Shown here: one piece after another, positions 1-22,200 of the stretch | Numbering within the stretch: the first letter of the stretch is position 1 | How the letters are laid out: every line of letters starts with the position of its first letter | Origin: Daphnia carinata | Lineage: Eukaryota | NCBI RefSeq assembly: GCF_022539665.2 | Contig: NC_081333.1 | Span: 8,494,001-8,558,000, forward strand | Length of the DNA stretch: 64,000 nucleotides | Reading direction: 5' to 3' | Position numbers and translations under genes: made by a program | The notes under the pieces: generated by a model | The model's input: the letters and a program-made list of their open reading frames with translations, nothing else | Database searches by the model: none | What the model was told of the DNA's origin: nothing

Positions 1-447
1 GAGAGCGCTGTGGTTACCAGAAAATACATTATACATGACATTCGTTTGAAGGTATGGCCCCACACCGTCCGTTATTTAAATTTTAAGGATTTCCAAATTA
101 TTCTTTAATTTACAGCTATTTGCAACCACAAAAACTATTTATTTAAAAATTTTTGAGCCCCAATCTCGCTAACCTACTGACACTGGTAAACATGTGGTGA
201 TAGTCAGCGGTTCTCTTGCCAATTTAAGTCACTCCTAACTTCTGTTGTAATTTTTAAGGGATTGATTTATTATTCCTCTAGCCAAATTTGATTATTAAAG
301 GTAATTGGCCACTTGAAGGGATTTCATTCTTTCACAAACTTAAATTCTGAAAAGTAGAAAGTTCTCCATGTAGACTAAAGGCTTCTTGGATTTTATTATC
401 CAATCAGTGTATGTTTTACTTTATAAAGATTTGTTTCAATGCACAAC

Positions 448-3400
448 ATGGTCATAGAAAAGGAAAATATGGAGGGTTCTGCTTCCCTTGAAACAGCTAT
501 CCCGAAAAAGCGAGGGAGACCTAAAAAGGTATCCATCTTGGGTTATATTAATACAGAATAAATTTTGAATAGCATATGTTTTCAAAAGATCAATTTACCT
601 GCCAGCCCAACTTCTCCAGCTTTTCCTGATGTGAGGGAGGATGATGATCTGTCACTAGTAGTCAAATCTTCCAAGAGATTTGTTGAAAAAATAGTCGCTG
701 AGGATTCTTTAGTTGGAAAGAGTACCCCTACAAGACGTTCTGGGCGTCCCAGAAAGGTAATGTACCAATATCAATGGAGTACATTTAGCTGAGTAACTAA
801 TGTCAGACAAATTCATATTCTGCATCTAAGGGCACTTTACCAGCAACACCATCTTCACCCTTATGTTCTGAGAAAGAGGAAGAAAGTGTACTAGCAAAAA
901 GAAAAATTCTGTCTTCAAAGAAGCACAAAGAAATTATAGGTATAGAGGATTCTTTAGAGGAAAATGTCACCCCTAAAAAACGTGGACGACCCAAAAAGGT
1001 ATTCAAGTATAAGTTGCTGACAAATCAATTCGTTGATGCCGACCGGTTTATCTAGGCTGATTTACCTCCGACTCCATCTTCACCGTCATGTTCTGACAAT
1101 GGGAGAGAAGGAAATTTACCGGCAATCAGGTCGGCTAGGCGGTCCGAGCCACGGCCAAAATTTCTTGATCCATTGCTGGAACCAAGTGCAGAAAATTGCT
1201 CCGAAACACCAGCAAATAGTAAACGAGGAAGAAAACGGAAAGCCATGTCACCCGAAGATGAAATTACCCCAAAATCTCCCGTGAAAGTTAAAACCATACC
1301 GAATGTAATGTGATTAATCTTTAGATTTATAAGCTTATTCATAAACTTTTTTTGTAGGTTGTCTGTGGGGTTTGCAAAAAAGAAATGCCACAGCCAAACT
1401 TCACCTACCATCGATACGCTGTACATTATGGGTTAGCAAGACTAGAAGGAGCATCCCAAGTAATATTTAGCAACTCCTGATACTGGCTCATTGTATCTGT
1501 ATAATGGATAATTTTGCAATATGACTCTTTTATAGGTATTTACGGAAGCCGAAAAAACGCAGCAGTTGAAAAAAACTCTCGAAAAGATTAAGCGATTGTC
1601 TTGTTCCAAGTGCTCCACCAGCTTTACGACACTGTTGGGTTTTCAGTACCATCAGAAACGCTGTGGCGTTGATGCTGCCGATCTTCAAAACATGTACGTA
1701 TTATTTCTCATTCATACGGCAATTGAATCGATCTTTATGTTTTTGTGATATTCAAGGTTGAATGAGTGTACGATTTGCGGTAAACGGGTAATGGCTTTAA
1801 CGGCGCACATGAAGGTTCACGATAAAAAAACAGAAAACGTTGAAAGAATAAAAGCTGCGACAGCAGTACCAGCTCCAAGTCCAGGAACAAAATCGAGAAG
1901 GGTCGCCGCTCAAAAGTAAATACTAATTTGTATAGCACGAAGATCAAATACGTAATATATTTTTTTATTTAGAGCTGCCTCTCTTTTACGGGAACTCAAG
2001 GAAGATCTTGTGGATGGACCAACTCAGAAGCCCATTAGCAAAGCGGTAAATAAAAGCAAAACTTGGAATAACACAAAAAAATATATATATCACCGTAACA
2101 GTATAGCTTAATACTGTAATTGTTTTAGATAAAATTGTTCACGGAACCTTCAAGCAGTAAAGTTACGAACAGTATTATTGGAGCTTGGAAAAAACAAATT
2201 GACCAAAATTCCATAGCTCAGTGCCGGTACCCCAGCTGTCCTTTTAGCTCGGATAACATTGACACATTAAAGGAACATCATGTTCAATGCGAAATCGGTT
2301 CACGCTCCAAATGTTTCGCGTGCCTGAAGTGCGATTTCCGCTCCCAAGATCGGTCACAAATTCTAGAACATGCGCTTAATACCCATGTCACAGAAAACGA
2401 TGACGCATTTGAACTGAGTGGAGCTAGTAGCAGCAGCGAAGACACAGAATACGATTCGGACGCTGAAGGAGGAAGCGGACGTGACAGTGACACCGAGGAC
2501 CAAAGACTAAATAGAAAGAAAATCGTTCCCCAGAACACAAAGAATGTAGAGAAAGCCTACGGGTTACATTGCCATGATTTGCAGCAATTTAAGTCTTTAG
2601 TAACATCACAGCATATTCCAGTTTGGCTCGCGAAATTGTACTACGATAACGAGCATAGCTCTCCACAATTTATTGACTTCTGATTTGTCACTTTGTCTCT
2701 AGCCACAAGAAGAATTTTACGTGGGAAACTTCACTGTACGGGGCCTGGACACCGAATGTGCAAACCTGCGTGAACCTTCCGCCAAATTATTTCCCATCCA
2801 ATGAACAATCAGTTCCTTTTGCCCGCCGGTTAGTTACTTCGGGAAATTTATTTCCGACGAAAATTGACGTCACTCTGGAACGGCTTTCGAGGTTCCAAAG
2901 CAAATTGCAGAATGGTCGAATTCAACATTCTTGTTTCATTTGACAATTTGTAATGTTTTTGTTTGATTTTAGGTACGCCAATCTTTTTCTGTGGGGGGGC
3001 CATACAAAGTGCATCTTGGTGCCCGATGCCTGCAGTCGCAGACGTTGCCACTGTAGACAGAGACCAGTATCTAGCGTTATCAATATTTCACGAAGAACAC
3101 CGATTTAGAAGCGCGTCACAAGCTGCGTTTGCATCCGAGAACCTTATACAAATCTGGAACTGTGGAGCTCTTCACAACGCTATATACCCTCTAGTTGCCC
3201 CACATTTAGAAATTTGTGTCGCACATAACTATGGAAGAATTTGGTCGTTAGTTTGGTGTCCTAGCGGATGCTACGAAAAGGAAAGACTGGGCCTATTAGC
3301 GGCGGCTTGTTCCGATGGCACTATACGTATCTTCAGTATTCCAAACACTTCGCTGTCGACCAAAAAGATTAAGTATACAGAAGTCAGCTTTTTGCGCAGT

Positions 3401-4952
3401 GTACTGTGTCTATGACCATTTAAACGTTTCTTTAGCGAACCGTCGTTTTTACGTATTTGCCCTAATGCCACTCTTCGGTTGAATACCGCAGAAACGAGCG
3501 AATGCACTTCCCTTGATTGGGATTCGACATCTGGCCACAAGTGCGTAATTTCAATTATTTTTTACCCAGGATAGTTACATTCTTTTAATCTGTTAGGTTC
3601 ATCGTAGCCGGGTTCGCTAATGGTATTGTTGGGCTCTGGAACTTACAAACAAAATCTCCTCTTCTTTTGAGGGAAGACGGCCATTATCCTGTGTGGTCAT
3701 TTTATGCCCATTCTACTGTTGTTACTGGTATTTTGTTAATTATTCTGTGGTAATTCAAAAGTCTTAATTTTCGGTTTACATTTCAGCCGTGTCACTGTCG
3801 CCACACCACAGTGATGCGCGTTTTATAGCAACGGCTTCCACTGACCGTACCGTTAAGTTGTGGGATCGTCAAGACCTTGCTGTACCTATCAGTTGGAGTA
3901 AGCGGTCTCGTGTTACGGATATTAAATGGAGGCGGCATTGGCCTGGCATACTTGTATGCGTTGAAGACGTATGCGCGTGAGTATTGCTAACGTTTTTCAT
4001 ACCAGTGGCGCATTCAATGCTTTTGTGTATTTTTTTTCCAGATTATTCCGATCTTCGTCTGTGTTTTATGATTTCGGCTATACGGGAAATAAACAAGCAC
4101 TTCTTCCTCAGAACTCTGTCGTTTGGGTAGTACAAAATTTCTTTAATTTCTATATTAGGGATGGGCATTATTTTCTTGATTTTTACAGTCTTCTGCCGAG
4201 AACGAATACCTTGATGTCATAGCCCATTGTACCAGTGCCGGGGAAATCGTGATATATGCTTCACATTTGGCCGTGTTCGATTGTGATGAGAAGAAACTAC
4301 GAAAACAAAGAATTGTATGCAATATTCTATAGAATTCACGGGAAAATTAGCAAATGATAATTCGCTGAAACGTTTCCTGACTTTTTGCCAATAGTTGCTA
4401 TTACGAACGGATCTAATCGATGCGAGTGCGAAGAAAGACATTTTCCTCAATCGGATGCAAAAGAGCTACTTAGAAAGCTCTAAAAAGGCGCCTGAAATTA
4501 AAACAGAGACCCGAGAAAATCTTAATTATTCGCTTATCTTTAACGATGTCACTACAGTGAGTTACTATTTGTTTGTCGATTGTTGATACTTGAATGCCCC
4601 GGATGATTACTGTTATTATTATAATGTCTTTCTTTTTGTTTCAGCCTATGATCCGGACTATCGGAAATAGAAAGCAACCTCCTGTGATTAGCATCTCTAC
4701 CGAAAATATGGATGTTCATATGCCTTGCCATGATCCGTTGACATCAATCAATAAGGTAAACTAAGTTTTACACTGGCCCTATTATTTAATGCTGATACCA
4801 TGTTAAACCGTTAGATCTCCTTTAATCCCAACTTGGAATCACATGCATGGATGTGTGTCTGTGGTGAAAGTGGGTTGGTCCAATTATTGAAAATTAATTC
4901 CCCTTCGATTTCTAAGGTGACAAATTGCTATGTTAAAGAAATGAATAGCTGA
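448..4952 (+). CDS. GTF3C2: TFIIIC subunit 2 (TFIIIC110/beta, WD40) with N-terminal AT-hooks and ZNF512-like zinc fingers; multi-exon
   Basis: Hand-spliced with GT-AG introns. Exon 1 448-528 (MVIEKEN...KKRGRPKK), then 589-756, 831-998, 1056-~1304, and zinc-finger exons 1358-2637. The join at 2637/2703 stays in frame into WTPNV..NYFPSNEQSVPF. WD40 region: FFCGGAIQSASWCP, LIQIWNCGAL, HNYGRIWSLVWCPSG, RLGLLAAACSDGTIRIFSIP, ATASTDRTVKLWD. The last exon ISFNPNLESHAWMCVCGESGLVQL matches the GTF3C2 C-terminal motif as I recall it. TGA at 4950-4952. The start could instead be the in-frame ATG at 439. Confidence 0.88.
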
Positions 4953-5689: not shown

Positions 5690-7514
5690 ATGACGGGAGT
5701 GTTTCTTCTCATTATTTCGTTATTCGGGAAAATATCAGCGCAGCAAAGTAAGTACCGATTTATATATGCCATTGATTGTTGAAAACTGTAACTTGTCTGG
5801 AGCAAAGATTGGTAAAAAAATTTATTTGAAATTCATTGAAGCCTTAGATTCGATGGAACGCCCAATATTTGAAGGTGAAACAACCCCGTTCCGAACAAAT
5901 TCGCGTCCATTGCTAGCTATCGATCAGCATCTTACGGATTCGAGTGGCCTGCAAGCCAAGCCGATTCTGGTGAATCTACACCAAGTTTCGCCATCATCGC
6001 TAATGATTCCGTTACCGCCACAATCTCATCCACAAACCCCTCCACAGCTTCCGCCTCGTCCTCCATTGCATATCATTCCCCAGCAAATTTCTCCATCGCA
6101 GAGACTGACACCTGTTTCGCCAAATGTACCTTCGATTCGGCAGCCACCTGAGAGCGAAGAATTACCTCGTGTATCTTCCCACCTTCAATTTCCAAGGCAG
6201 CCACTACCGTCGGACCCTCCAGGTAGGACGGTGTTAGCTCCAAGTTCATTGGGTGTTTTAAACCAAGATCGAATTCGCGTTGAGGGATTTCAGCCAATTG
6301 AACGAAGATTTATACCAACAAAAAGGAAACGCTCATTTGAGGTCCTGAGTAATTTAAATACATCTGATGAAGAGAAGGAAGACGAATTTTTGCCGGTTGA
6401 GCCTTCTGCTCGTAGGTTATCCGCACTCGATTTGTTTGACCAACGCGAATCTGATGTCGATAGCAATTTGATCAGCGAAGGCAGTGGTGTAGGTTTTCAA
6501 AATGTTTCACGTTCTGGCTACATCTCTTCCACAAATCTCCGGCCCGAATCAGGTTACCTAGCATCTGCCACACGACTTTCAAACGAGATCGTTAAACCTG
6601 TTATGTCGAAAAATCCCATGAATTCGCGGATGCAGCAAGAAGAAGCAGAGGAGGAAAGCAATGCTATTCTGGATCAGAAAGAGAGCTCTGGGTTTGGGGA
6701 AGTTTCAGGTGTGTCAGCTAACGAAGCAAACGTCACAGAAGCTCCGTCATTTGGGTCTGTCCTTGTATCTGAAGCTTCCGAAGAAAACAGCGAAGATGTT
6801 CCGTTTGAGGTTGGACTCGTTACTAACTCGCCAAATGCAAATGTTACCACGGGTTCGATCACGAATGTAACGTTCTCTACACTTAATCAACCACAGACAG
6901 CTGAAACGAGGCTGCCGTCAACCCGAGCCGCCGAAGGACTGTTTATCCCAACCGCTAGTTCCAATTCTGTTCCTTGTGAGTATAACACTTGACTTGTGTT
7001 AATATTATAAAAAAAAAATAATTCTTGTTTAGTTGTTCGTGACAGCAAATTGCTGCGGATTTTCAAGGAATATGCGGTTTTGATTGTTGTGTGCCTACTG
7101 GGATTGCCGGCCATTGTAGTTCTCTGCTACTTCCTTAACTTGAAGCGGGTGAAACGGTACAGTGGCACAATGGATGTAACACCAAGACAGGCAATTTGCC
7201 ATCACAAAAAATCAGAAAGGTATATCTTATATTCGCTTTTATTGGCTGTAGATCCGGTTAATAATTTTGTTTCTATACATTCAGCCGTAAAACCATTTGT
7301 TCAGAAGAAAATGAACTAGCCTGCTCGCCACCGACTTCGTCCTCGAAAACTCCTCAACCTCCTCCATTCCCGAATGGTAAAAAATACGTTCATTGATGCG
7401 AGGGGGTTTCCACAAATTTATATTCATATGTTTCACTGTTGGGTTCTTATATTATCTAATACATTACCAGGATTATGTGCATCCACCGCAAACAAGCGGT
7501 TTTTTTCAAATTAG
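5690..7514 (+). CDS. Uncharacterised single-pass type I membrane protein with Pro/Ser/Thr/Glu-rich (mucin-like) ectodomain
   Basis: Exon 1 5690-5747 encodes a signal peptide (MTGVFLLIISLFGKISAQQ) followed by gtaagt. Long exon ~5842-6975 is part of the 408-aa ORF. The exon from 7033 encodes a TM helix (YAVLIVVCLLGLPAIVVLCYFL) followed by basic residues KRVKR. Two small 3' exons end at TAG 7512-7514. Intron phases are consistent. Confidence 0.75.
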
Positions 7515-7849: not shown

Positions 7850-8060
7850 TTTGGTCGCAACACGAATTATTAACGTTCAAATGTTTTTAAACTGAATGAA
7901 AGTCTTACATTGAACCTAACATGGTTCTTACCAGAGATCGACATGAACTGTTAGATGCCTTCTGTGTGCAAGTGCTATTATTGCAACAAATTTGTTCTTG
8001 CAACAAAATAAACCCGACTTTTCTTAAACTTAACGGTTATCGCCACAACTTTATTCGTCC

Positions 8061-8494
8061 GTTTTTTACGTTTATTTTAGAAACTTTAATGCTCACGCCA
8101 AAACAACCTTGATTTTTGTGATTTTCAATCAATTTGCAATCGAAATCATGTATTTAAAGTCATATCTAGGATTTAGCCAAAAATGAAAAAGTGAGAAGGC
8201 TATAGCCTTCCAAAATTGAACGCTGAGCTCGATTACGTAAGTGTTTTTCTCCTTAAACCAGTCGTTATTATGTTTTAATAGGAAAATCTATAGAAATTTT
8301 AAGCCCGACTTTTTAAGCCCGAGAAAAATAGGCCCGACTTTTTTGTTTTTTACGTTTATTTAAAAAACCATAAAGCTAATGCAAAAATGAACTTGATTTT
8401 CATGATTTCCATTCAATTTTGAATCGAAACCATGTATTTTAAGTGAAATTTAAATTTTGGCCAAAAATGTAAAAGTGGGAAGGTTTATGGCCTT
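8061..8494 (+). repeat. Diverged ~150-bp direct repeat (8061-8209 vs 8345-8494) near the outer arm end; mirrored in the right arm
   Basis: Both copies read gttttttacgtttatt...cttgatttt..gattt..atcgaaa.catgtattt.aagt...gccaaaaatg.aaaagtg.gaagg..tat.gcctt. A cccgactttt motif recurs at about 8013, 8304 and 8333. Confidence 0.85.
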
Positions 8495-8678
8495 ATGGCT
8501 TATAGCCTTATGGCAATCCGTTTTACACAAAAAAAAAAAATAAAATTTCGCCAAAAAAAAAAAAATCACACTTTTTTCTTTTTTCCGACACGTAGCCATC
8601 TACCGCTCAGACTCGTTATTACTGGCGTAGGCAATTTCAGTCCATTGGATTCCATTCGCAGTTAGTTCAGTAACGTGG

Positions 8679-9920
8679 ATGGAGAATAACGCGTGGCTGG
8701 AGGAACAATTGAAAAATGGATAAGATAATACGACAAAAGGATGGTAAGTATAAACATTATTATATTGGTTTTCAATTATTCATTATTTTTTATTAGATCA
8801 AATTATGAAGCTGCAGGCCCAATTATTGGAACAACACAAAATATTAGATAACAGCAAAGCTAAGGATGGTAAGGCCTAATACGTAATGATTCTATTTATT
8901 TGCTTTTATTCATTTGTGTTTTGTAGCTCAAATTTTGAGTCTACAAGCTCAGCTAGGGGAAAAGAACAAATTGGAACGGACCAGTTTCCATACAGTGAAG
9001 GAGGTTTTTCCAAACTCATCCCTAACTGAACATGAGGATGAATTGGCATTAGGCGAACACAGTCAGGTACCTAAACTTTTCAAATAAGAATTCAAAATAA
9101 GTATAGAATTTTAACAAACAATTATTTATTGTTTAGTTATTCAGTCTACCACCTGACAGTGTGTTAAAGTTTAATTCTGTTAGTGCTGCACTAAAAGAAT
9201 TATTAGTAATAAGTCCATGCAGCGAAGGAAGTGAACAATTGTGGGACCGTATTTGGGCTGAAAATGGGTGTGGTACGGAAACCCAGAAATAGCATGAGTT
9301 CAACATAAAACATGAATTAGGTACTTTTCGGTTTTTTGTCAATCGAAAAAGTATTTTTAATGCTATTATTTTGCATTCACAGAATTTTAATGGGGGTTCA
9401 AGTCAAGTCTGGAAGTGTTACAGAATGGAAGAGTGAGCCTACAGTTGAAAAACACTGAAAGTGCATTACCATTAAGGTATGAGGTAAAGTAATAGAGTAT
9501 GCAAATTGTCTAATGAGAAGTACCATCTTGTGTGAATGAATCCTGTGTAACAGCAATCCTTTATAGTTCTGTCACAGCTAGAAGCCTCAAATAATTCTGC
9601 TTCTCTGGCTAAAGAACAACTTGTCCTTTACGTTCAGAGTGTTGGTGAAGCTGGGTACTTAAATGGCCCTAAAGATGTTTCATTTCGTTGGCATTGCAGC
9701 GATGAACATCATACATGGACTTTTTAGGTATGAAAGGATTTTTCTTCAAATAATTTTGAATTTATGACAAAGCATTTCTCCTCCTTTTTGCCAACCAGGT
9801 CTAATCTACCAAAAAAATTTTATCCTATAGGAAAGGATTTTCATGTACTGGGAACACAACTATCAACAATGCAACATTCTAGGGGTGCTATTTTATCATT
9901 CAAGAGCCTTATACAATGAT
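8679..9920 (+). pseudogene. Disrupted intron-containing gene of unknown family (coiled-coil N-terminus) in the left arm
   Basis: TCAGT (Inr-like) at 8667 precedes ATGs at 8679 and 8716. Exons -8743, 8797-8868, 8927-9066 and 9137-9320 are separated by 53-70 bp GT-AG introns. They read MDKIIRQKD-DQIMKLQAQLLEQHKILDNSKAKD-AQILSLQAQLGEKNK...LFSLPPDSVLKF...EQLWDRIWAENGCG. In-frame TAG at 9290. Further exon-like blocks at ~9554-9727 and 9799-9920 carry stops or frameshifts. Confidence 0.7.
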
Positions 9921-10780
9921 TTTCATCTGCAATTTGTATGGCCTTTCCCAAGCTTCTGCCAGAAGTTGAATCTATAAGTCATGTAAGTCACATGAGCAAC
10001 AATTGAGATGCTTAATGGTGTTGTTTTTCTTTTCTCAATATAGGTTAATAGTAACATTGGATCTGAAAAGATTCTTGGTTGGGGCAAGACACTGAATAAA
10101 TTGTATTGATTGGATGGATGACATGACATTTCTATACTTAATTCGGATTCCCCAGACGGTATTTGATATTTAAAAAATTGAAGTGCATATCTGGGCTCCC
10201 TTCTTTTCTGAAGCCCCGTTTCCCCTTGACTCATAATAAGCCCGTAGGGGGTCATGCCCCTACTGTACGGTATATATAAAAACAACATATACCGAGGTTT
10301 GGAGGGCTCTGGCCGGAAAGGGGACGTGGGGTGCCGCTTAGTCCGATGATGTGTTCACGGAGGGCGATGTGGCTACCCACAAATCCGAACTAAAGGTTAA
10401 TCGCTCCTGTAAAAATGTTCCAAATCTTCAGCTCTTCTTCCGGCTTCTCTTAGCCAATCACCGGGTAATCTCCCCGGTGGGTCAACAAGGCAGTGTCTCC
10501 CCCTGCCTGGGTTGACGGCAACTTTTGAAAGGGCTATTGTGCCTTTTTAAAGTTGCAAAAAAATTGTAATGTGCAGAGAATTGTCAATAAATTTTTTTTT
10601 CTAAAATGTTTTTTGCAAAATTTGTTTCTTTCATTGTCTGTGTTCGCTTTGTTCACACATTATCATTATCAACTTTTTTTTTCATTTAGCTTGCTCAATG
10701 CACCTTTGGTTTTTATGCCACCTTTGTTGGTAAGCATTGTTTCCATTGGTTTATCGTTTATCTGTAAGCATTCATTTTTA

Positions 10781-10845
10781 TCCGGGGATCGAACCCTGGA
10801 CGTTCGGCATACCGCGCCGATGCTCTACCAATGAGCCATGAATCA
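10781..10845 (-). pseudogene. Degenerate tRNA-like unit 1 (A box and B box)
   Basis: Minus strand: TGGCTCATTGGTAGAGCA-TCGGC-GCGGTAT-GCCGA-ACGT-CCAGGGTTCGATCCCCGG. D arm, 5-bp anticodon stem and T arm are recognisable. The acceptor stem does not pair and U33 is absent. Confidence 0.8.
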
Positions 10846-10959
10846 CATGATGTCAAGTTGGTTTTTTTCTAGCCACTTGCGGACTTGCATTTACACTTTG
10901 AATAAAACTGAAATGCAATACTGCAATATTCTTTTCCACATTTAGATATAGATCTTTAT

Positions 10960-11030
10960 ACATCTACTAAGGTTTGAACCCAGGGTAACAGTTATCGCAG
11001 CTGAATGCTCTACCACAGGGCTATGGACCT
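10960..11030 (-). pseudogene. Degenerate tRNA-like unit 2 (A box and B box)
   Basis: Minus strand: TAGCCCTGTGGTAGAGCATTCAGCTGCGATAACTGTTACCCTGGGTTCAAACCTTAG. B box GGTTCAAACC is good; the anticodon arm is decayed. Confidence 0.7.
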
Positions 11031-11126
11031 TATGATAGCAATAGAAAGATAAACATATATTTGTGAAAGACTGCGTTAACATCCTAGAAGATAACATATG
11101 ATGTGCGATAATAAAAATTTTAGATA

Positions 11127-11197
11127 TATCTCATGGCTCAATGTTAGAGCATCGGCGTTGCACGCTGAATGTCTGGGGATCGATTCTCATACCAGTA
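11127..11197 (+). pseudogene. Degenerate tRNA-like unit 3 (tRNA-Ala(TGC)-like)
   Basis: TGGCTCAATGTTAGAGCA-TCGGC-GTTGCAC-GCTGA-ATGT-CTGGGGATCGATTCTC. TGC sits at the anticodon position and the T loop is GATCGA, as in eukaryotic tRNA-Ala. 44/57 nt identical to unit 1 by hand count. Acceptor stem lost. Confidence 0.75.
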
Positions 11198-11342
11198 AAC
11201 CAATATACAAATACAAAATTACTTCAGAAAATATCCAGGTATTACACGTTCTTTCTCAAGTTCAAGAATTCAAAAAGTGTAATAAATAATAATTGAATAC
11301 TTACAGATAAACGATACAATGGTGGCAAAAACAAAGATGAAA

Positions 11343-13992
11343 TGAGCAAGCTAAATGAAAAAAAAAGTTGATAATGATAATGTGTGAACAAAGCGAACAC
11401 AGACAATGAAAGAAACAAATTTTGCAAAAAACATTTTAGAAAAAAAAATTTATTGACAATTCTCTGCACATTACAATTTTTTTGCAACTTTAAAAAGGCA
11501 CAATAGCCCTTTCAAAAGTTGCCGTCAACCCAGGCAGGGGGAGACACTGCCTTGTTGACCCACCGGGGAGATTACCCGGTGATTGGCTAAGAGAAGCCGG
11601 AAGAAGAGCTGAAGATTTGGAACATTTTTACAGGAGCGATTAACCTTTAGTTCGGATTTGTGGGTAGCCACATCGCCCTCCGTGAACACATCATCGGACT
11701 AAGCGGCACCCCACGTCCCCTTTCCGGCCAGAGCCCTCCAAACCTCGGTATATGTTGTTTTTATATATACCGTACAGTAGGGGCATGACCCCCTACGGGC
11801 TTATTATGAGTCAAGGGGAAACGGGGCTTCAGAAAAGAAGGGAGCCCAGATATGCACTTCAATTTTTTAAATATCAAATACCGTCTGGGGAATCCGAATT
11901 AAGTATAGAAATGTCATGTCATCCATCCAATCAATACAATTTATTCAGTGTCTTGCCCCAACCAAGAATCTTTTCAGATCCAATGTTACTATTAACCTAT
12001 ATTGAGAAAAGAAAAACAACACCATTAAGCATCTCAATTGTTGCTCATGTGACTTACATGACTTATAGATTCAACTTCTGGCAGAAGCTTGGGAAAGGCC
12101 ATACAAATTGCAGATGAAAATCATTGTATAAGGCTCTTGAATGATAAAATAGCACCCCTAGAATGTTGCATTGTTGATAGTTGTGTTCCCAGTACATGAA
12201 AATCCTTTCCTATAGGATAAAATTTTTTTTGGTAGATTAGACCTGGTTGGCAAAAAGGAGGAGAAATGCTTTGTCATAAATTCAAAATTATTTGAAGAAA
12301 AATCCTTTCATACCTAAAAAGTCCATGTATGATGTTCATCGCTGCAATGCCAACGAAATGAAACATCTTTAGGGCCATTTAAGTACCCAGCTTCACCAAC
12401 ACTCTGAACGTAAAGGACAAGTTGTTCTTTAGCCAGAGAAGCAGAATTATTTGAGGCTTCTAGCTGTGACAGAACTATAAAGGATTGCTGTTACACAGGA
12501 TTCATTCACACAAGATGGTACTTCTCATTAGACAATTTGCATACTCTATTACTTTACCTCATACCTTAATGGTAATGCACTTTCAGTGTTTTTCAACTGT
12601 AGGCTCACTCTTCCATTCTGTAACACTTCCAGACTTGACTTGAACCCCCATTAAAATTCTGTGAATGCAAAATAATAGCATTAAAAATACTTTTTCGATT
12701 GACAAAAAACCGAAAAGTACCTAATTCATGTTTTATGTTGAACTCATGCTATTTCTGGGTTTCTACCACACCCATTTTCAGCCCAAATACGGTCCCACAA
12801 TTGTTCACTTCCTTCGCTGCATGGACTTATTACTAATAATTCTTTTAGTGCAGCACTAACAGAATTAAACTTTAACACACTGTCAGGTGGTAGACTGAAT
12901 AACTAAACAATAAATAATTGTTTGTTAAAATTCTATACTTATTTTGAATTCTTATTTGAAAAGTTTAGGTACCTGACTGTGTTCGCCTAATGCCAATTCA
13001 TCCTCATGTTCAGTTAGGGATGAGTTTGGAAAAACCTCCTTCACTGTATGGAAACTGGTCCGTTCCAATTTGTTCTTTTCCCCTGGCTGAGCTTGTAGAC
13101 TCAAAATTTGAGCTACAAAACACAAATGAATAAAAGCAAATAAATAGAATCATTACGTATTAGGCCTTACCATCCTTAGCTTTGCTGTTATCTAATATTT
13201 TGTGTTGTTCCAATAATTGGGCCTGCAGCTTCATAATTTGATCTAATAAAAAATAATGAATAATTGAAAACCAATATAATAATGTTTATACTTACCATCC
13301 TTTTGTCGTATTATCTTATCCATTTTTCAATTGTTCCTCCAGCCACGCGTTATTCTCCATCCACGTTACTGAACTAACTGCGAATGGAATCCAATGGACT
13401 GAAATTGCCTACGCCAGTAATAACGAGTCTGAGCGGTAGATGGCTACGTGTCGGAAAAAAGAAAAAAGTGTGATTTTTTTTTTTTTGGCGAAATTTTATT
13501 TTTTTTTTTTGTGTAAAACGGATTGCCATAAGGCTATAAGCCATAAGGCCATAAACCTTCCCACTTTTACATTTTTGGCCAAAATTTAAATTTCACTTAA
13601 AATACATGGTTTCGATTCAAAATTGAATGGAAATCATGAAAATCAAGTTCATTTTTGCATTAGCTTTATGGTTTTTTAAATAAACGTAAAAAACAAAAAA
13701 GTCGGGCCTATTTTTCTCGGGCTTAAAAAGTCGGGCTTAAAATTTCTATAGATTTTCCTATTAAAACATAATAACGACTGGTTTAAGGAGAAAAACACTT
13801 ACGTAATCGAGCTCAGCGTTCAATTTTGGAAGGCTATAGCCTTCTCACTTTTTCATTTTTGGCTAAATCCTAGATATGACTTTAAATACATGATTTCGAT
13901 TGCAAATTGATTGAAAATCACAAAAATCAAGGTTGTTTTGGCGTGAGCATTAAAGTTTCTAAAATAAACGTAAAAAACGGACGAATAAAGTT
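11343..13992 (-). repeat. Right arm of inverted repeat (2650 bp)
   Basis: Reverse complement of 8047-10697. Confidence 0.97.
12120..13360 (-). pseudogene. Mirror copy of the disrupted spliced gene in the right arm
   Basis: Reverse complement of 8679-9920, with an additional 2-bp deletion (~12763) and a 1-bp homopolymer insertion. Confidence 0.7.
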
Positions 13993-14568: not shown

Positions 14569-17271
14569 CTACATGCCGGTATTACGATTGTCGTAATCTG
14601 AACCGGATGATCGTCGGTCATATTCACTAGGAATAGCATAGATGTGCTGTTGATTTGGTCGGGTAGGAGGTGGTGTGAGCGACGAATTTGCCTGATCATC
14701 CGGATCGCTGGTATTACCCGCAACTTGCCACGCTTTTGGAGGAAAAGAATGATGAAGGTTTTGTAAACCCATAACGATTTTTGGAAGGACAACTCCGAAA
14801 AGGATTACGAAAGCATTTCCTATAGATCAAATATCAATATCAGATAACAATGTAGAACTAACAAAATGTGAAAATAAAAAATGGAGACCTTGGATTCCTG
14901 CAAGAATGATGACATCTCGCCATTCATTTCCAATCTGAAAATATAAAACACTCCACGTTATGTTGATCAATAAGCAGATCAATGAAGATACGCTGAGGTT
15001 GATTTTGATGGCTGAAACGTGCCTGTCAATGCAGAAGTTTTTTATTATTTACAAATGCAAACGGTTTTTGGATATTTGAATGAGTTTTACCAGTGATGAT
15101 AAATGATGATTAGACTTCCTAAGCTGACAATCCCGTGTAGTATGGTAGGGTACAAAAATAGCTTCAGCGACAGTAAATCATCAAGAATGCACTCCGTTTT
15201 TGGGCCATAATCAGTCAAAATTTTGTTGATCTGTAAAGTGTCATCGCGAAAGAGCGTCTCATATGTCAAAACGGGGGCTTGGACACTGATTGCCAGAACG
15301 AAAAGAAGCATCTGAATGCATAGGCGGGCAGACTTGTCATCCGGTCGAGTACCCACCAGGCTTGTTGCCGCGGTTGAAAATATGGAAGCCAGAAAAAAAG
15401 TATAAGCTCCACTCAAAGCGATAACACGGCCTAGGCAGAGGACGTTACTAGGTACCAAAAGATAAAGGAGGCTGACCAAAAAGAGCACGAGGATAGCAAC
15501 TAACAGTAAAAAGATAAAGTTGCCTGATCTATCTTCGTGATTTGAGCAGCACTGAATATGAAATATAAACATCGTGCCAGTTAGAGTTAATAAGATGCCT
15601 AAGATAGAAATTGAGCCAATCATGATGATGTGTAACTCGGTGCTAAGTTGGAAGATAAAGCCTGAGGAAGAATCGACGTTTGTGCACAGACAATCTTTGC
15701 ACTCTGTTATCTCTTCTCGTACAACGTCCATGTTTCGTGTAGGAATGAACTTATCCTCGTGGATATTGCCAACCTCAACGATAGTTTGCGGACCTTTGGC
15801 ACTCTTCTTTGACACATAGGTGACAGGAAATAGTTCGTTGTAGATGCTAATGTCAGTAGAAAGTTTAAGAATTCGTAGATCCTCCTCTGCGAGCGTGGTC
15901 TTCTTTATCAAGTGATGAGGTTCAAAATCACAAGCGTTTATCTTGTCGCTGCAGGTGCTTGATAAATGGTTCTTGAACTGCTTGATCAGCGAATACAGAA
16001 CTCGTGCTGAGACATTATCGTCCGTTAGCACTCTTTGTGGGCGAATGATAAAAGCTTCTTGGGCGATCGCCGCCACTTCTACAATAGTAACAGGATACAT
16101 AAATGATACTTATTGATCATTCAAATGACTTAAATACCTTCCGTAAAATTTGAATTCCAGTTATCGGCTGCCACGAGCACGTATTTGTAGTGGGAGCTCG
16201 TCGTGTTGTTTGCTTGAAAGTGTGGAAGAACGGCTAATAAAAATTCACTGGAACCAATCAAAAGGTATACTTTTGACCCGGATCGTTTTGATCGTCGAAC
16301 GGCTCGAACTGTCATTTCTTTCGTCCTACTTTTTTTTTTAAAAGCAATAGCGGAAAATGAATTTACTCATCTTTTTTTGGAATTCTTCTTGGGTTAAACT
16401 TGCTTTAGTGCTTGCCTATTAATCGGGGAAAGCACTGTTTGCGCCACAATACAGATACTACGTTCACCAGCTTTTTTCGAAAAGCTGAGCAACGCTTGCT
16501 TAGATTGGCTAATTACTGCGATCGATGACCATCGCAGTCGAACGAGAAGATCCGAAACAGCATCCAGAGGAGAAGTTGTTTGCCAATATGAGATGTCAGT
16601 GGCAGGTAAATTTAGCACAGACAGTAGTTGTACCGCAGAGGGATAAGAACGAACGGGGAAAAGGAAACCTGAAGAACAAGAACAAAAACAAATGAAATAA
16701 AATAAAAGCTTATTGGTAAACAATATCAGCACCTAAGTAAACGCCCACTCTGCATGAATAGCCATGCGTTAAATTTGCCTCAAGAGCAGTTTCCAAGACG
16801 GCTTGCAGCGCTATGCTCTCCTGGCCACATGTGTCAAATATTCGAATACCTATAGCACAATGATAATTGTCAATCATAAATTCCCCGGAAGCATGCAGCG
16901 ATTTGAATGCCTTACCAATTCGTAGATCTTTTAAATACTGAATCGAGTTGAGTGTTTGAAACGTTTGCAGAATCCCGTTCATGCTTTGCATGGATGCAGC
17001 ATTTTTCTGATTGCATTGCGGACCCTGTGTCAAGTCCAGCAGGACGGTGACCGTAACATCGCCTGAAACAATAAAAGTCAAGGGAAAGGTGACGCATTTT
17101 GATTACAATCTACATGCGTGGATGAACAGTATCAAAGTCACCTTTCTCTTCGTAAACTAAGCTGGATTCTTTAGCACACTCGCTCACATGCTGGTTTTGA
17201 TCACCGAGAGATTGTAGAATCCTCGTGGTCAGAAGCAGCGTTACAACAATCAATGGCGAGATGGACTTCAT
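14569..17271 (-). CDS. Class C GPCR, bride-of-sevenless (boss)-like: signal peptide, degenerate Venus flytrap-like ectodomain, 7TM
   Basis: Signal peptide MKSISPLIVVTLLLTTRILQSLG from ATG 17271. Spliced LRIG-IRIFDTC matches the class C ectodomain G..I.DTC motif; LLVRLRWSSIAVI follows. TM1-5 lie in ORF 15087-16100 (LCLGRVIALSGAYTFF; IQMLLFVLAISVQ). TM6-7 lie in exons ~14890-15022 and 14569-14819 (WRDVIILAGIQG-NAFVILFGVVLPKI). Boss assignment rests on recalled similarity, so no symbol is given. Confidence 0.8.
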
Positions 17272-17307
17272 GGAGAACTGCGGAAACGCCTCCACCCGAA
17301 CATTCAC

Positions 17308-17600
17308 TAGAAAGCTGGCTGGAACAGTTCAGGTAACAGACAGCTTTAATTCGAAACAAGCGAATGTGACGCTCACCAATTTCGTAGTGCCAATAACTTC
17401 CTGCATATTCAAACAAAAATTACTTATCAAGACCTTTGAACAATGCCGTCGGACGAGCCAACGGTCTAGGCTCTCTACAGACTTACTGCGCATGCGGAAG
17501 ACGAGGAATCCGTAATAAGGTAAGCCAATTAGTGCGGCAGAGGTCCGAAATCAAACAAGGGCTGCGTCTGCCCAATTGCATAATCCTATGGTACCATGTT
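17308..17600 (-). promoter_or_regulatory. Putative 5'UTR intron and promoter region of the boss-like gene
   Basis: Minus-strand gtaagt donor at 17481-17486 and tttctag acceptor ending at 17308. TGCGCATGCG (NRF1/Ewg-like) at 17487-17496 and CCAAT motifs at ~17525 and ~17572. Confidence 0.3.
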
Positions 17601-19277
17601 TAAATTTTCTCTTTGCATTGGACTGGCATCCGGTCGTGTACAACTGATCTATAAAAAGGTCCTATTTGGAATGACTTAAACTGCCATTGTAACATGAGTG
17701 GGCCATTACAAATGTAAACTAACAACAACTTACGGATTCTAAGGGCGGCGGTTTTTAAAATGTTTTGGCCTCCTTCTCTCCATGCGCAAAAACCGCATCA
17801 TTTTAAAGTTACGGTTTAAAAAAGGAAATTTAAAAAACTGCGTCGCCATACTGGCTGGTATTTTGCCTGAGTTGCTGCATCGCATCTTTGTTTGTTTTCT
17901 TTTTCCAGCGTTGATTCGTGAGAGAATGTACGATATCACACTAAACCCCCAACTCTTTCTAAGGATTCAACTGAGTCCGGATCGTGGATAACACGGGGTC
18001 ATTTCTAATTCATGGGAGGATAGCAAATCAAAGGATCAACGGGTAGAAGGACTGCGCTCAACATGATTACAGTGTAGTAGGGGAACAAACTAGTTCCATA
18101 ACAATTACATTCGCTTCGTGCACAGTAGATTGCCTAATTGCGATAACCTCGACTATGGAACGCTCGCTTCTTTAACATCTGCTGCGTGTTCGGTAATAAG
18201 ATGTATTAAGAGACAGGATGTTTCTGTGAATGAATATTGTTGGCTACAGATAACGAATGACATGAGAAGAGGAAAAGAAATAGGTATGAGTATTAGTGGC
18301 AGCAATCCGATCGGATGTGGAAACCGGACAGAACAAGTTTCAAAGTTCGGCATTTAAAGGTAACACAAGTATTGTAAACAAGAATTTGGGGAAAAGGGAA
18401 TGGAGAAAGCGAAAGAAAAATGAACGGGCGATTACAGCATTTCTTTTTTTCTTGGCACCGCTGCTCAACGCTACCGTGTAATAATATTTAAATTCAAACT
18501 TTTCGATTGACAAAAAGGAAACCCGCAAAACGAGGGGGTTCCTGAAAACAATTTTAAAAAATGGAGAGGGGGAAAAAAAAGAAGCATATATGTACTTATT
18601 TCAGTGAAATCAATACCGAAACGGGGCGTTGACCAACGAGGAAACAGGTTTTTCAGGGATAGAAAAAGAGGAGGATGGGAGGAAAATGTCACTGTGTGAG
18701 TGAGTGTAAAGTGGCAACGTAATGGCTAACGTAAGCACAGACATTTCTCGGGTTGCCCTGTCCTATGCATATATTCAAAACTACCCACACCCGAAATCAT
18801 TATGCGTCATGACTTGGATCGATTCGAAAATCCTTTCAGTCAACATTTCTTTTTTTTTTTTGTTCTTAGTCTTTTCCGGCTGTACTTTGTTTTTCATGTG
18901 TTGCTTGTTCACTTCCGTGATTTTCCAATCGCTAAATATACACTGATGTCCAATTATTTATACTCCGAAGGGATCCAAACGAAAAAAAAAGCAACATGGA
19001 AGGGACTTGCTATCAGACATCTTATAGCTTGAAAAGAGGAAAATGATAATAAAAGGAAGCAAAACGTAATAGAATAAAAAATTGCTGTTAAAAATATACG
19101 CTACAAGGGGATAGGAGGAAGAGAAATAGAATCAAATCGCTAGCAAAGGTTTTTTTTGTTATATACCGTAATTTTGTCGATTGTTTTCCTTTTTTTTGTT
19201 TGTTTTTTTTGTTTATGTTGTCAACGTCTTACCCTCGTTCAGCTACTGCACTTGATTACGTGGCCTTTTCGCAGCGC

Positions 19278-22200
19278 TTACAGACACTTCCTAGAGCAGC
19301 CGCATTTGCGGACGATTTCAATCTCCTTGGTGTAGCGCGTTCCGTCATTACAGATGAGCTTCAGGCGGCGTTTCTTGGAGCGTCGAGGTCGGCAGCAATC
19401 GGAACCGCAGTTGCCGCTGCAGACGGAATTCCGGACTGGCTTTGTCGATCGGCAGCCGTGTTCCATGTAGTAGTCACGGTATTGTTCCTTCCGGCATGTC
19501 GGCGCTATAACGATAGCAGGTTAAGCAACGAATATGCGAAAGCAACCGTGAATTAACACTTACCAGTGTCGCAGTATTTGCCTCCCCAACCAGCTTGACA
19601 TTTGCAGCTGTAATTCTTGCCGTCTTTCTTTGAAACGCACTGACCCTTACGGCAGCGGTGATCCTTGCACGGGTCATATGAAGTCAGCACTGACGTCTTG
19701 AGCGTGTTCATCTGCACATTGTAAAATTTGCACAAGACAATTGAAACACTTGTTTTCGATGTTCGTGTTTGCATCTTTTCATTTTTCTTACATAGCTCTG
19801 CGGCTGGGCGGCACTGTCTTTGACTTCACGCTGTCCATTATCCTTTTTCAGGTTGCTGGCTTTGGGCTTGACCATTTCGGCGACCGTGTCCTCTGATTCG
19901 GAATTGGCACAGCCAGGGATGATTCGGTTCTGTTTGGTAGCAGCCTGAGCGTAGTCTGTTAACTTGCCGTTGATCCAGAGTTCTGTTGGGAAGACAAACG
20001 CGACAGGTTACGATGTGAAACCAAAAGAAATAAAACGAAAGAGTCTATAAAAACGAAAAACGAATTGCAATAAAGACCTTTTATGCAACCGCGGAAGCTA
20101 GTGGTGTTTCTGAGTTGCCACTGTCGTGCGGCTTTCTCAGCCGCTTCATTGGGCAGGCCTCCAATAAATAGTGGTGTGCTCAAGCGCAGGTACTCGTGCT
20201 CTCCCTCATTGATCATGGAACGAGCGTTCCCTTGATCAACTCGCAAGGTAAAGTTCTTCTTCTGCGACAGCAACTCCACGGTGTGGTATCGACCATCGGA
20301 CACTGTCTCGTAGCTAAAACAACATCGAAAGATAAAGTAAACATTTAAAAGCCTGGTCATGCGGCTATAAAGTGAATAACAAACCTGAACATGTTGGAAA
20401 CTGGGTAGTTTCCGACATCGTAGCTGACGCGAACGCGGCCTCGGAAGAGTTCGACGGCGATGTGCTGCGATTCTCCATTGTAGACAAGAATGCCGTTTTC
20501 TTCTTCGGTCGAGAAGATCATGGTAATGTTGGCTTCTGGTTTGGTCTTCAGCGATGGCATCTCAATGTAAGAACCATTTTGGGCGAAGCTAACGCTAGTC
20601 AAAAATTCGCAACGCTTTCCTGGATGGACATCGTCATATAAAAACGCGATAGAACCAACATTTTTCAACTGATTTCAAAATGGACTTACCGGTGTAACCC
20701 GAGGCGCACTTGCAAATGTAATCCGTCAATCCTTGAGGTTGAAAGCAAATGCCATTTTGGCAATCGTGCTGTTGACAAGGTGAAGTCTGTGGGTATAACA
20801 GACTCACCATGGGGGAGGCCTCGCAAAACTTGCCAGAAAATTCAGGCGGACATTTGCAAGTGTATTCGTTAATACCGTCAATACACGTGCCACCGTTCTA
20901 TAAAAAAGTTGGAACAATTCGAAATTCGATTCACTAGAGATCCCTATATAGAAACTAGTAATACCTGGCACATGTGGTTGACACAGTCGTCGTTATTAAT
21001 TGTACAATTTTCACCGCTGAAACCAAGGGCGCATTGGCAAGTGTAGTGATCACCGCGGTCCAAGCAAATGGCACCATTTTTGCAAGGATTGAACTCTTTG
21101 GTGCAGAACTGGATCTTCTTTTCGCAGTACGTTCCTAAAAGAAAAATAGAGCTGTATTGCAGGACGAAACTAACCAATACTACAATAGATAATTCAAATC
21201 ATTACCTGTGTATCCACTCTGGCAATCACAACGGTAGGATTCGACTTGATCGACGCAGGTGGCATTGTTGACGCACTTGTGATCCAGGCAGTCGTTGATG
21301 TTTGTTTCGCAACGATCTCCCTCGTAACCAGCAGAGCAGTGACAACTGAGTAATAAAACGCGCAAGTTTAAAAGGCGAATTTAACGCATGACAAATCGAG
21401 TGGCAATACCTGAAACGACCTTCTTCTAAAACTTTGCAAATGGCAGAATTGCGACAAGGGTTTCCATAACAGGCGTCTATGGCAGACTCGCAAAGTTTTC
21501 CGTGATACCCAGGAGCGCACAGGCATTCATAATCCCTCTCGCCCGTCGGCCGGCAAGTGGCGCCGTTTTTGCAGGGGAAGGTATAGCACGTGTCGCACTT
21601 GGCCAGCACTTCATTGGAAATTTTGCCTAAGGAATAACAATCAAGAGAAAGCCGAAACATCTCAATTTGAGGTGGATAAGAAAATGGTTCAATTTAACGT
21701 TGTTTACCTTTGCACTGGAAGTGATCAGCGGGGGAAGTTAGAAGGAGCTTGTCTCTCAACAACGTCGGCTCGGCGCAGCGAGCGATGCCCGGCTCAACAT
21801 AGTCTCGTTTGACCCACTCGGCCAGCCAGCGAAGATTGCAATCGCAGTAGAATGGATTGGAGCCAAGAGCCCTGTACCGTTCAAACACGATCATTAAAAA
21901 CGTGCGTCGGAACGAGTCGGGAAAACAGAGAAACTCGGGAAAGAAAAAAAGAATTTTTAAATTACAAGTGGGTGATGGATTGTAGATCGGTGAAAGCGCC
22001 TTCAGGTATCATGGATACATCGTTCCCGTGCAACGACCTGAGATTGAATAGTAATAATAAAAAGAAGAATAAAAATGGCAATCAACACGTTAGAGACAAC
22101 GGTCACGTTCTGTTGGCACGTACATATTATAACTCGATTTGAATCAAGCCAAATGCTAGAAAAACAAACAACACACGAAAAAAAGAAATGACGTACAGAA

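What the first reader, a model, noticed from the sequence alone, without database searches (positions are those of the whole stretch)
448..4952. GTF3C2 appears fused to a ZNF512-like zinc-finger module in one reading frame
Seen: one continuous spliced frame joins AT-hooks, a C2H2 finger (CGVCKK..H....H), and two C2HC+C2H2 pairs to the TFIIIC110 WD40 domain. The pairs are QLKKTLEKIKRLSCSKCSTSFTTLLGFQYHQKRCG + CTICGKRVMALTAHMKVH and WKKQIDQNSIAQCRYPSC..LKEHHVQC + CLKCDFRS..HALNTH, with a RRVAAQKAASLLREL linker. From memory, the C..F....G..YH...CG finger and the RR.A..A...L.EL linker are typical of vertebrate ZNF512/ZNF512B. Those are separate genes from GTF3C2, and I recall ZNF512 lying in the same human band, 2p23.3. 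Inference: a Rosetta-stone fusion, or an ancestral composite gene split in vertebrates, linking ZNF512-type chromatin binding to TFIIIC.
Basis: partly seen in the sequence, partly recalled or inferred. Interest (0 to 1): 0.8.

Follow-up and report, generated by a model that had tools for sequence, protein, structure and literature searches.

The report
ZNF512 fingers inside ancestral animal TFIIIC110
This water-flea gene encodes one protein in which the RNA polymerase III factor subunit TFIIIC110 (GTF3C2) carries the zinc-finger module that vertebrates keep as the separate heterochromatin proteins ZNF512 and ZNF512B; the same joined form occurs in a sea anemone, molluscs, arthropods, echinoderms and amphioxus, so ZNF512 likely arose by duplication of this gene in early vertebrates.

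Summary
Confirmed and extended. A 19-exon frame (448-4952, 1108 aa) is 100% identical to a Daphnia carinata RefSeq 'GTF3C2-like' protein. Single spliced contigs from 4 of 4 runs of a sister species span it, including joint 2637/2703. The C-terminal half is TFIIIC110 (human chain, E 1e-51). The N-terminal fingers are specifically ZNF512-type: a vertebrate ZNF512 profile scores one collinear 253-aa stretch at 79 bits, against at most 30 for 102 poly-finger controls. This is no Daphnia fusion. The composite occurs in a sea anemone, molluscs, arthropods, echinoderms, a hemichordate and amphioxus; 5 of 5 teleost GTF3C2 and the human chain lack the fingers. Vertebrate GTF3C2 and ZNF512 both keep the helix that lies between the finger pairs, two fish gene models join the two genes head to tail, and they stay linked in human and cattle. 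Best reading: tandem duplication with reciprocal domain loss in stem vertebrates. What the invertebrate fingers do is untested; likely an extra DNA anchor for TFIIIC. Ten literature searches found no report, and one 2026 paper calls ZNF512B vertebrate-specific. This scan noted the same architecture once before in another genome (e1-9931895).

The parts
20..51 (+). 3' part of a non-coding 5' exon (its start is not determined); intron ~52-428 follows
   Evidence: Loose 5' end of contigs at 426 in 3 of 4 runs matches window ~20-50; GT at 52
439..4952 (+). Coding span of the composite GTF3C2/TFIIIC110 gene. Exons: 439(448)-528, 589-756, 831-998, 1056-1304, 1358-1459, 1536-1693, 1757-1915, 1973-2045, 2129-2637, 2703-2914, 2973-3372, 3436-3540, 3597-3727, 3787-3976, 4042-4126, 4189-4314, 4395-4556, 4645-4755, 4815-4952
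   Evidence: Open frame, GT-AG introns; 100% identical to RefSeq XP_057364695.1; spliced contigs
505..1238 (+). Disordered basic N-terminus with three AT-hook motifs (about 505-525, 733-753, 975-995; one at the end of each of exons 1-3) and a basic motif (about 1221-1238)
   Evidence: Motif scan; Pfam AT_hook below cut-off, E 0.06-0.07; pLDDT <50 for residues 1-221 of the ortholog P0001. Coordinates worked out by hand from the exon table
1364..1426 (+). Finger 1: lone C2H2, matching the second finger of ZNF512 pair 1; the C2HC partner, present in deuterostomes and ZNF512, is absent here
   Evidence: ZNF512 profile aligns from position 47 on; A2/A3 alignment
1602..1820 (+). Fingers 2-3: C2HC (1602-1664) + C2H2 (1767-1820), matching ZNF512 pair 2
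1890..2006 (+). Basic-Ala-Ala linker helix (pattern R-x-A-A-x-x-A), split by intron 7; kept in both vertebrate GTF3C2 and ZNF512/512B
   Evidence: Invariant R, A, A in 12 of 12 arthropods; predicted helix 361-378 of P0001, low pLDDT
2189..2386 (+). Trp-bearing pre-finger helix and fingers 4-5: C2HC (2222-2290) + C2H2 (2321-2386), matching ZNF512 pair 3
   Evidence: Top PDB hit 2ctd ZNF512 aligns here
2396..2506 (+). Acidic, disordered tether between finger module and WD40 domain
   Evidence: Sequence; pLDDT <50 for 478-550 of P0001
2638..2702 (+). 65-nt GT-AG intron at the finger/WD40 junction
   Evidence: Joint in 4 of 4 runs
2703..4952 (+). TFIIIC110 WD40 domain (exons 10-19)
   Evidence: phmmer E 1.1e-51 to human 8cli_C, yeast tau91 E 1e-5; Foldseek top 5 are human and yeast TFIIIC110/tau91

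Best explanation
The gene is the Daphnia GTF3C2/TFIIIC110 in the form shared by many invertebrate animals, one protein with AT-hooks, a ZNF512-type finger module and the WD40 domain; vertebrate ZNF512/ZNF512B likely arose from it by tandem duplication with reciprocal loss, and the fingers likely serve as a tethered extra DNA anchor for TFIIIC. Shown: one spliced frame, both homologies, the spread from cnidarian to amphioxus, and the absence of fingers in the vertebrate GTF3C2 sampled. Inferred history: in the vertebrate stem the gene was duplicated in tandem; the upstream copy kept fingers and helix and lost the WD40 (ZNF512, later also ZNF512B); the downstream copy kept AT-hook, helix and WD40 and lost the fingers. 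[quoted passage not shown] The hooks and fingers, on a flexible acidic tether, would grip flanking DNA and raise the residence of TFIIIC at tRNA genes, B-box repeats and extra-TFIIIC sites. The helix kept in both daughters is likely a short binding motif for a partner that is still unidentified. My odds: composite real 0.98; ZNF512 homology 0.97; ancestral form split in vertebrates 0.85; DNA-anchor role 0.55.
For: Single transcript. GTF3C2 identity; the WD40 tree groups 5 finger-less fish with finger-bearing amphioxus and crinoid (SH-aLRT 95, quick tree). ZNF512 specificity: arthropod profile ranks 2ctd (ZNF512) first of 177,635 PDB sequences, E 4.9e-7; amphioxus module ranks ZNF512B and ZNF512 first and second; Pfam ZNF512_C2HC passes its cut-off in 2 amphioxus proteins; Atlas top two hits are ZNF512, 0.96 and 0.95; vertebrate ZNF512 profile gives the window's protein 79.3 bits in one stretch, against a maximum of 29.9 for 102 poly-finger controls. 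Spread: 52 of 57 invertebrate proteins found by the WD40 part alone carry the module at the threshold, 0 of 5 teleost ones do; also Actinia, Acanthaster, Anneissia, Ptychodera, Nymphon, Chamberlinius. Reciprocal loss: an arthropod-only profile matches human GTF3C2 only at 186-218 (linker, conditional E 0.0026) and 316-886; a fish-linker matrix ranks the invertebrate linker first of all windows in 17 of 24 proteins and in the top 3 in 23 of 24; ZNF512 and 512B carry the linker. Milkfish model P0188 is a whole ZNF512 followed by a GTF3C2, with two linkers; sturgeon model P0224 also joins the two. Human and cattle linkage.
Against: No function of the invertebrate fingers was tested. The module tree makes the ZNF512 family one clade (100/99) but leaves its position among invertebrate composites unresolved. 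The linker is short: in the invertebrate-to-fish direction scores were 0.5-7.7 bits, 0, 0, 0, 6 and 37 of 200 shuffles reached them, and the best of 1000 pooled shuffles (13.2) beat all five. Some invertebrate gene models hold fingers without WD40: Saccoglossus P0185, four vespid wasps P0044-47, a partial B. belcheri model; I read them as split models but did not see the DNA. The window's own protein gets no ZNF512 hit alone in Pfam or PDB (25 member 1), and CTCF (E 2.9e-5) ranks between ZNF512 and ZNF512B. Fish adjacency rests on two merged gene models, one flagged UNVERIFIED_CONTAM. The vertebrate GTF3C2 sample is 5 teleosts plus human; lamprey, shark and tunicate GTF3C2 were not seen. The module is labile: the last pair is missing in 3 molluscs and degenerate in P0069, which argues against an essential core role.
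Confidence: 0.78

Rival explanations
1. Same history, different job: the fingers of invertebrate TFIIIC110 already recognise repeats and recruit an H3K9 methyltransferase or another silencing partner, so that TFIIIC both marks and bounds heterochromatin. Vertebrate ZNF512 would have inherited this role rather than gained it.
For: ZNF512/512B bind pericentric repeats and recruit SUV39H (passages in PMC13537249 and PMC13458389). TFIIIC acts at heterochromatin barriers and extra-TFIIIC sites (PMC12409998). The whole three-pair module with linker aligns collinearly between deuterostome composites and ZNF512 (204-221 bits for amphioxus and Ptychodera). Finger units are amplified in ticks and some insects, as for repeat-tracking proteins.
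Against: No data on invertebrate binding or partners. The SUV39H-binding part of ZNF512 is not known to me from any text read. The published TFIIIC role is to stop heterochromatin, not to start it. Most Daphnia recognition helices differ from ZNF512 (alignment).
Confidence: 0.25
2. Clean fission: the ancestral gene broke into an upstream finger gene and a downstream WD40 gene without duplication, and the helix in vertebrate GTF3C2 is a chance basic helix.
For: Head-to-tail order ZNF512 then GTF3C2 in the fish models is what fission would leave. The linker test is weak in one direction.
Against: In the composite the helix lies between finger pairs 2 and 3, and ZNF512 keeps pair 3, so a single break cannot give the helix to both genes. 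Human and 5 of 5 fish GTF3C2 have the motif and an N-terminal basic or AT-hook region before it. The milkfish model shows two copies.
Confidence: 0.1
3. ZNF512 and GTF3C2 were separate neighbours in the animal ancestor and fused, once or several times, in invertebrates; vertebrates keep the old state.
For: Yeast tau91 shows no match to the finger profiles (absent from the 60 rows shown and the 12 rows), so the fingers were gained at some point. A few invertebrate models have fingers alone.
Against: It needs independent fusions with the same internal layout in cnidarians, protostomes, ambulacrarians and amphioxus, all outgroups to vertebrates. Of 9 named WD40-less hits, 8 are vertebrate. Fish GTF3C2 nests with finger-bearing deuterostomes.
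Confidence: 0.06
4. Annotation artefact: two adjacent Daphnia genes read as one.
For: The exon-9 frame runs on to a stop at 2683 if the intron is kept.
Against: Spliced contigs cross the joint in 4 of 4 runs; there is no AATAAA/ATTAAA between 2267 and 3920; the 65-nt intron is of ordinary size; full-length orthologs exist on transcript-sized contigs and in RefSeq.
Confidence: 0.01

Closest known systems
Human GTF3C2/TFIIIC110 (PDB 8cli chain C) and yeast tau91/Tfc6
   Same: Orthologous WD40 domain (E 1e-51; Foldseek E 6e-42); an N-terminal AT-hook-like motif and the linker helix are also present in the human chain.
   Different: The human chain has no fingers; the Daphnia protein inserts five, three before and two after the helix.
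Vertebrate ZNF512 (Pfam PF21276, PF21367; PDB 2ctd) and ZNF512B (PDB 2gqj)
   Same: C2HC+C2H2 pairs with a Trp-bearing pre-finger helix, long spacers and the same linker between the last two pairs, collinear over about 270 profile positions.
   Different: They are stand-alone with no WD40. ZNF512 has three pairs in the proteins examined; ZNF512B has four pairs and a NuRD motif (PMC11602157). Daphnia lacks the first C2HC, and most recognition helices have diverged.
Invertebrate GTF3C2 database entries (D. magna XP_032778299.2, Branchiostoma GTF3C2, Actinia XP_031550880.1)
   Same: Same composite; some already carry automatic C2H2 or PF21276 labels.
   Different: They are named GTF3C2-like or uncharacterised; I found no paper that draws the link to ZNF512.

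Membership tests
GTF3C2/TFIIIC110/tau91 | WD40 domain whose best match is TFIIIC110 | tested here: met
GTF3C2/TFIIIC110/tau91 | Orthology to vertebrate GTF3C2 | tested here: met
   WD40 tree of 30 rows follows animal groups (quick tree, midpoint root, no outgroup); RefSeq name
GTF3C2/TFIIIC110/tau91 | Assembles with TFIIIC90 and TFIIIC220 into tauB | not tested
   No partner sequences held; no complex job run
ZNF512/ZNF512B | Paired atypical C2HC + C2H2 fingers | tested here: met
   Two pairs plus one lone C2H2; ligands invariant or nearly so in 12 arthropods
ZNF512/ZNF512B | Specific collinear similarity to ZNF512 above generic C2H2 proteins | tested here: met
   79.3 bits against at most 29.9 for 102 controls
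ZNF512/ZNF512B | Pfam PF21276 above its cut-off | tested here: inconclusive
   No hit for the Daphnia proteins; 5 of 12 arthropod modules hit at E<=5, best 1.1e-5; met in 2 amphioxus proteins, not in the other 11
ZNF512/ZNF512B | Stand-alone finger protein without WD40, three or four pairs | tested here: not met
   Fused to WD40, first C2HC missing. It is the pro-ortholog of the module, not a ZNF512 gene
ZNF512/ZNF512B | Binds pericentric repeats and recruits SUV39H; NuRD motif in ZNF512B | not testable with these tools
   Needs ChIP, pull-down or tethering; NuRD motif not searched

The most novel reading that the evidence does not exclude
The vertebrate heterochromatin initiators ZNF512/ZNF512B are a shed piece of the Pol III factor TFIIIC. 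In most invertebrates TFIIIC itself carries a repeat-reading finger module that can recruit silencing machinery, which would tie tRNA-gene and SINE recognition, barrier activity and H3K9 methylation to one complex; the helix kept in both vertebrate daughters would mark a still-shared partner.
Probability: 0.25. Interest if true: 0.9.

Novelty: new variant of a known kind. Interest (0 to 1): 0.72.

Why it matters
ZNF512B is described as vertebrate-specific (PMC13458389), and how heterochromatin is started at diverged pericentric repeats outside mammals is treated as open (PMC13537249). This places the origin of the ZNF512 module at least as far back as the cnidarian-bilaterian ancestor, inside a core Pol III factor that is known as a heterochromatin barrier. 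It names a candidate protein to test in Daphnia, mosquito, sea urchin relatives or amphioxus. It also means human and yeast TFIIIC structures lack a DNA-binding module that many invertebrate TFIIIC complexes have. Finally it points to a 20-residue helix in human GTF3C2 (about 193-216) and ZNF512 as a shared, unstudied motif, and it is a clear case of gene birth by duplication with reciprocal domain loss.

Tried and rejected
No whole genome is held for the window, so gene copy number and a separate ZNF512 in Daphnia could not be checked. Exon-by-exon and whole-protein Pfam scans gave no ZNF512 family for Daphnia; the Actin_micro hit on fingers 4-5 is below cut-off and was dismissed. The single Daphnia module against the PDB gave nothing under E 0.3; only profiles reach ZNF512. 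The word-indexed search with the arthropod finger profile returned 28 arthropod-type proteins and one generic ZNF536, no ZNF512. A linker profile hit human GTF3C2 (E 3.9e-4) but it contained 3 fish rows, so it is not independent, and it did not hit yeast tau91 at E<=10; a recalled similar motif in yeast Tfc6 is therefore unconfirmed. My recalled idea that Drosophila l(2)37Cd is GTF3C2 was wrong: it is GTF3C5 (PMC11495624). The Drosophila ortholog was not found; Anopheles has all five fingers. The Atlas search with the Daphnia module did not complete. In the module tree Pomacea and one ZNF512B row were dropped because the script found no linker close to a finger. In one search, 9 of the 19 'no module' rows are unrelated bacterial-type WD40 proteins and were left out of the counts; the 5 invertebrate misses are three fragments or partial models (P0011, P0015, P0030), P0069 (degenerate) and Ruditapes P0079 (23-26 bits only with filters off). 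The small word shares (0.08-0.09) were not used as evidence except for the 4 of 24 runs laid. Ma et al. 2024 (Nature, PMID 38961301) is not held.
Full report
1. Observation. The region reads as a compact-intron animal gene. A model of 19 GT-AG exons from 448 to 4952 is open for 1108 codons, with introns of 53-88 nt that are poorer in G+C than their flanking exons on the whole. It is 100% identical over 1108 residues to Daphnia carinata XP_057364695.1, annotated 'general transcription factor 3C polypeptide 2-like', which begins three codons earlier, and 91% identical to D. magna and D. sinensis proteins. I laid 4 of the 24 runs listed. Each gave one contig of 3420-3528 nt, 90-95% alike, that runs through the gene and skips the introns, including 2637->2703. 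These are contigs of a sister species, 3 of 4 are only guessed to be RNA, and contigs do not show transcript ends. No poly(A) hexamer lies between 2267 and 3920. The single frame is real. Motif coordinates in 'parts' were worked out by hand from the exon table.

2. The two halves. The C-terminal half matches human TFIIIC110 (8cli_C, E 1.1e-51) and yeast tau91 (E 1e-5) by sequence, and these are the top five Foldseek hits of an AlphaFold model of the D. magna-type ortholog P0001. In the model, residues 1-221 and 478-550 are disordered, the fingers are mostly confident, and the linker is a low-confidence helix at 361-378. The Daphnia module alone finds no ZNF512 in Pfam or the PDB. A profile of 12 arthropod modules ranks ZNF512 (2ctd) first in the PDB, E 4.9e-7, with the match covering the Trp-bearing helix before the finger; CTCF is second and ZNF512B (2gqj) third. 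The amphioxus module alone ranks ZNF512B and ZNF512 first and second of 12 hits, passes the Pfam ZNF512_C2HC cut-off and has ZNF512 clusters as top Atlas hits. In the reverse test, a profile of 9 vertebrate stand-alone ZNF512-type modules aligns the window's protein from residue 222 to 474 in one stretch at 79.3 bits (E 1.7e-20 for a million sequences); the best single stretch in 102 poly-finger controls scores 29.9, median 13.1, and the reversed protein -1.1. The homology is specific.

3. Spread. Of 57 invertebrate or unnamed invertebrate-type proteins found through the WD40 part only, 52 carry the module at 20 bits or more; the misses are three fragments or partial models, one degenerate case and a clam that scores 23-26 bits only with filters off. 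Five of five teleost GTF3C2 lack it. A deuterostome-weighted profile over 1.84 billion representatives gave 43 of 148 new rows with a strong collinear match or a GTF3C2 WD40 domain, 13 with and 30 without WD40. I named 20 of the 43. With WD40: amphioxus, crinoid, hemichordate, starfish, sea spider, millipede, weevil, shrimp, the sea anemone Actinia tenebrosa, and two fish models. Without WD40: ZNF512 or ZNF512-like proteins of lamprey, shark, smelt, pipefish, knifefish, toad and Danionella, a ZNF512B, and one Saccoglossus model. Amphioxus, crinoids and Ptychodera have at least the three pairs seen in ZNF512; arthropods mostly five fingers; three molluscs lack the last pair; ticks and some insects repeat units. 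The WD40 tree groups fish with amphioxus and crinoid (SH-aLRT 95). The module tree makes the ZNF512 family one clade with lamprey at its base (100/99) but does not resolve its sister group. Against a simple picture: the Saccoglossus model, four vespid models and a partial B. belcheri model have fingers only. The wasp halves in Mischocyttarus have consecutive locus tags and other vespids have the whole protein; the B. belcheri halves have consecutive accessions. I read these as split models without having seen the DNA.

4. How the split happened. The linker helix lies between the last two finger pairs. An arthropod-only full-length profile matches human GTF3C2 at just two places, the WD40 part and residues 186-218, which is the linker. 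All five fish GTF3C2 have the motif, and a matrix from them ranks the invertebrate linker first among all windows in 17 of 24 proteins. The opposite test was weak. ZNF512 and ZNF512B have the motif as well. One break cannot hand an internal helix to both genes, so duplication followed by reciprocal loss fits better than fission. The milkfish RefSeq model P0188 consists of a whole ZNF512 (60% identical to knifefish ZNF512 over residues 8-615) followed by a GTF3C2 with its own AT-hook and second linker; a sturgeon model, flagged as unverified, also joins the two. I infer head-to-tail neighbours merged by annotation. In human, both genes lie in one ~417-kb interval with 10 genes between (PMC2570409, one passage); cattle has the same order (PMC9602073, one table row). 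A stand-alone lamprey protein suggests the event predates jawed vertebrates, but lamprey GTF3C2 was not seen.

5. Likely working. [quoted passage not shown] TFIIIC also occupies extra sites and acts as a heterochromatin barrier (PMC12409998, passages). ZNF512B has C2HC+C2H2 pairs, binds DNA and aggregates chromatin through them (PMC11602157, passages); ZNF512 and 512B start heterochromatin at pericentric repeats through SUV39H (as cited in PMC13537249 and PMC13458389, passages; the primary paper was not readable). I infer that in invertebrates the hooks and fingers, tethered by a disordered acidic stretch, add a second grip on DNA beside the B-box (0.55). That they already recruit silencing enzymes is the bolder rival (0.25). 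Neither was tested.

6. Prior knowledge. Ten searches of the open library found no paper linking the two: ZNF512+GTF3C2 (10 papers, association or expression lists by their listings); ZNF512+zinc finger+evolution+Drosophila; TFIIIC110+zinc finger; with no paper; ZNF512+pericentric; TFIIIC+37Cd; ZNF512+TFIIIC (1 paper, listing only, one mention each). A 2025 preprint on ZNF512B has no mention of TFIIIC (term count only). PMC13458389 calls ZNF512B vertebrate-specific. Subscription journals were not searched and no supplements were read; the Nature paper's supplements or a ZNF512B alignment supplement could bear on the novelty claim. Databases already hold the hint as automatic labels. This scan noted the same architecture in another genome (e1-9931895); that note agrees but is not independent evidence.

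7. Verdict. Observation confirmed, interpretation supported and sharpened: an ancestral animal form of TFIIIC110, from which vertebrate ZNF512/512B likely derive. It is a new variant of a known factor, widespread rather than peculiar to this genome, apparently unreported, and directly testable. Interest 0.72.

Noticed in passing
window 8047-13992: Near-perfect palindrome: arms of about 2.67 kb (8047-10713 and 11327-13992) reported as three 100% complementary blocks, around a 613-nt spacer. The spacer holds two inverted 54-nt tRNA-like pieces with A- and B-box-like motifs (10788-10841, 11131-11184). Could be a foldback element or an assembly artefact.
   Followed up: partly
window ~17000-23000, - strand: Exons with LRR, LRRNT/LRRCT and EGF domains, likely a Slit ortholog.
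   Followed up: partly
window 15090-16109, - strand: 340-codon frame with a class C GPCR 7tm_3 domain.
   Followed up: no
window 5694-6989, + strand: 432-codon low-complexity Pro/Ser/Glu-rich frame with no Pfam match.
   Followed up: no
window 17304-17386, - strand: ARAGORN calls a tRNA-Thr(TGT)-like gene; not checked further.
   Followed up: no
window 448-998: Exons 1, 2 and 3 each end in an AT-hook at a phase-0 intron, and exons 2-4 begin with a similar Pro/Ser-rich motif; exons 2 and 3 are both 168 nt. This suggests exon duplication built the hook array.
   Followed up: no
proteins P0057, P0062, P0072, P0073, P0067, P0071, P0236: Ticks, a beetle, a shrimp and others repeat finger units inside GTF3C2 (up to 10 fingers; proteins of 2500-3600 aa), and Centruroides has two GTF3C2 paralogs.
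   Followed up: partly
protein P0183 (lamprey ZNF512-like): Carries AT-hook motifs on both sides of the finger module, 4 by motif count, closer to the composite layout than most jawed-vertebrate ZNF512.
   Followed up: no
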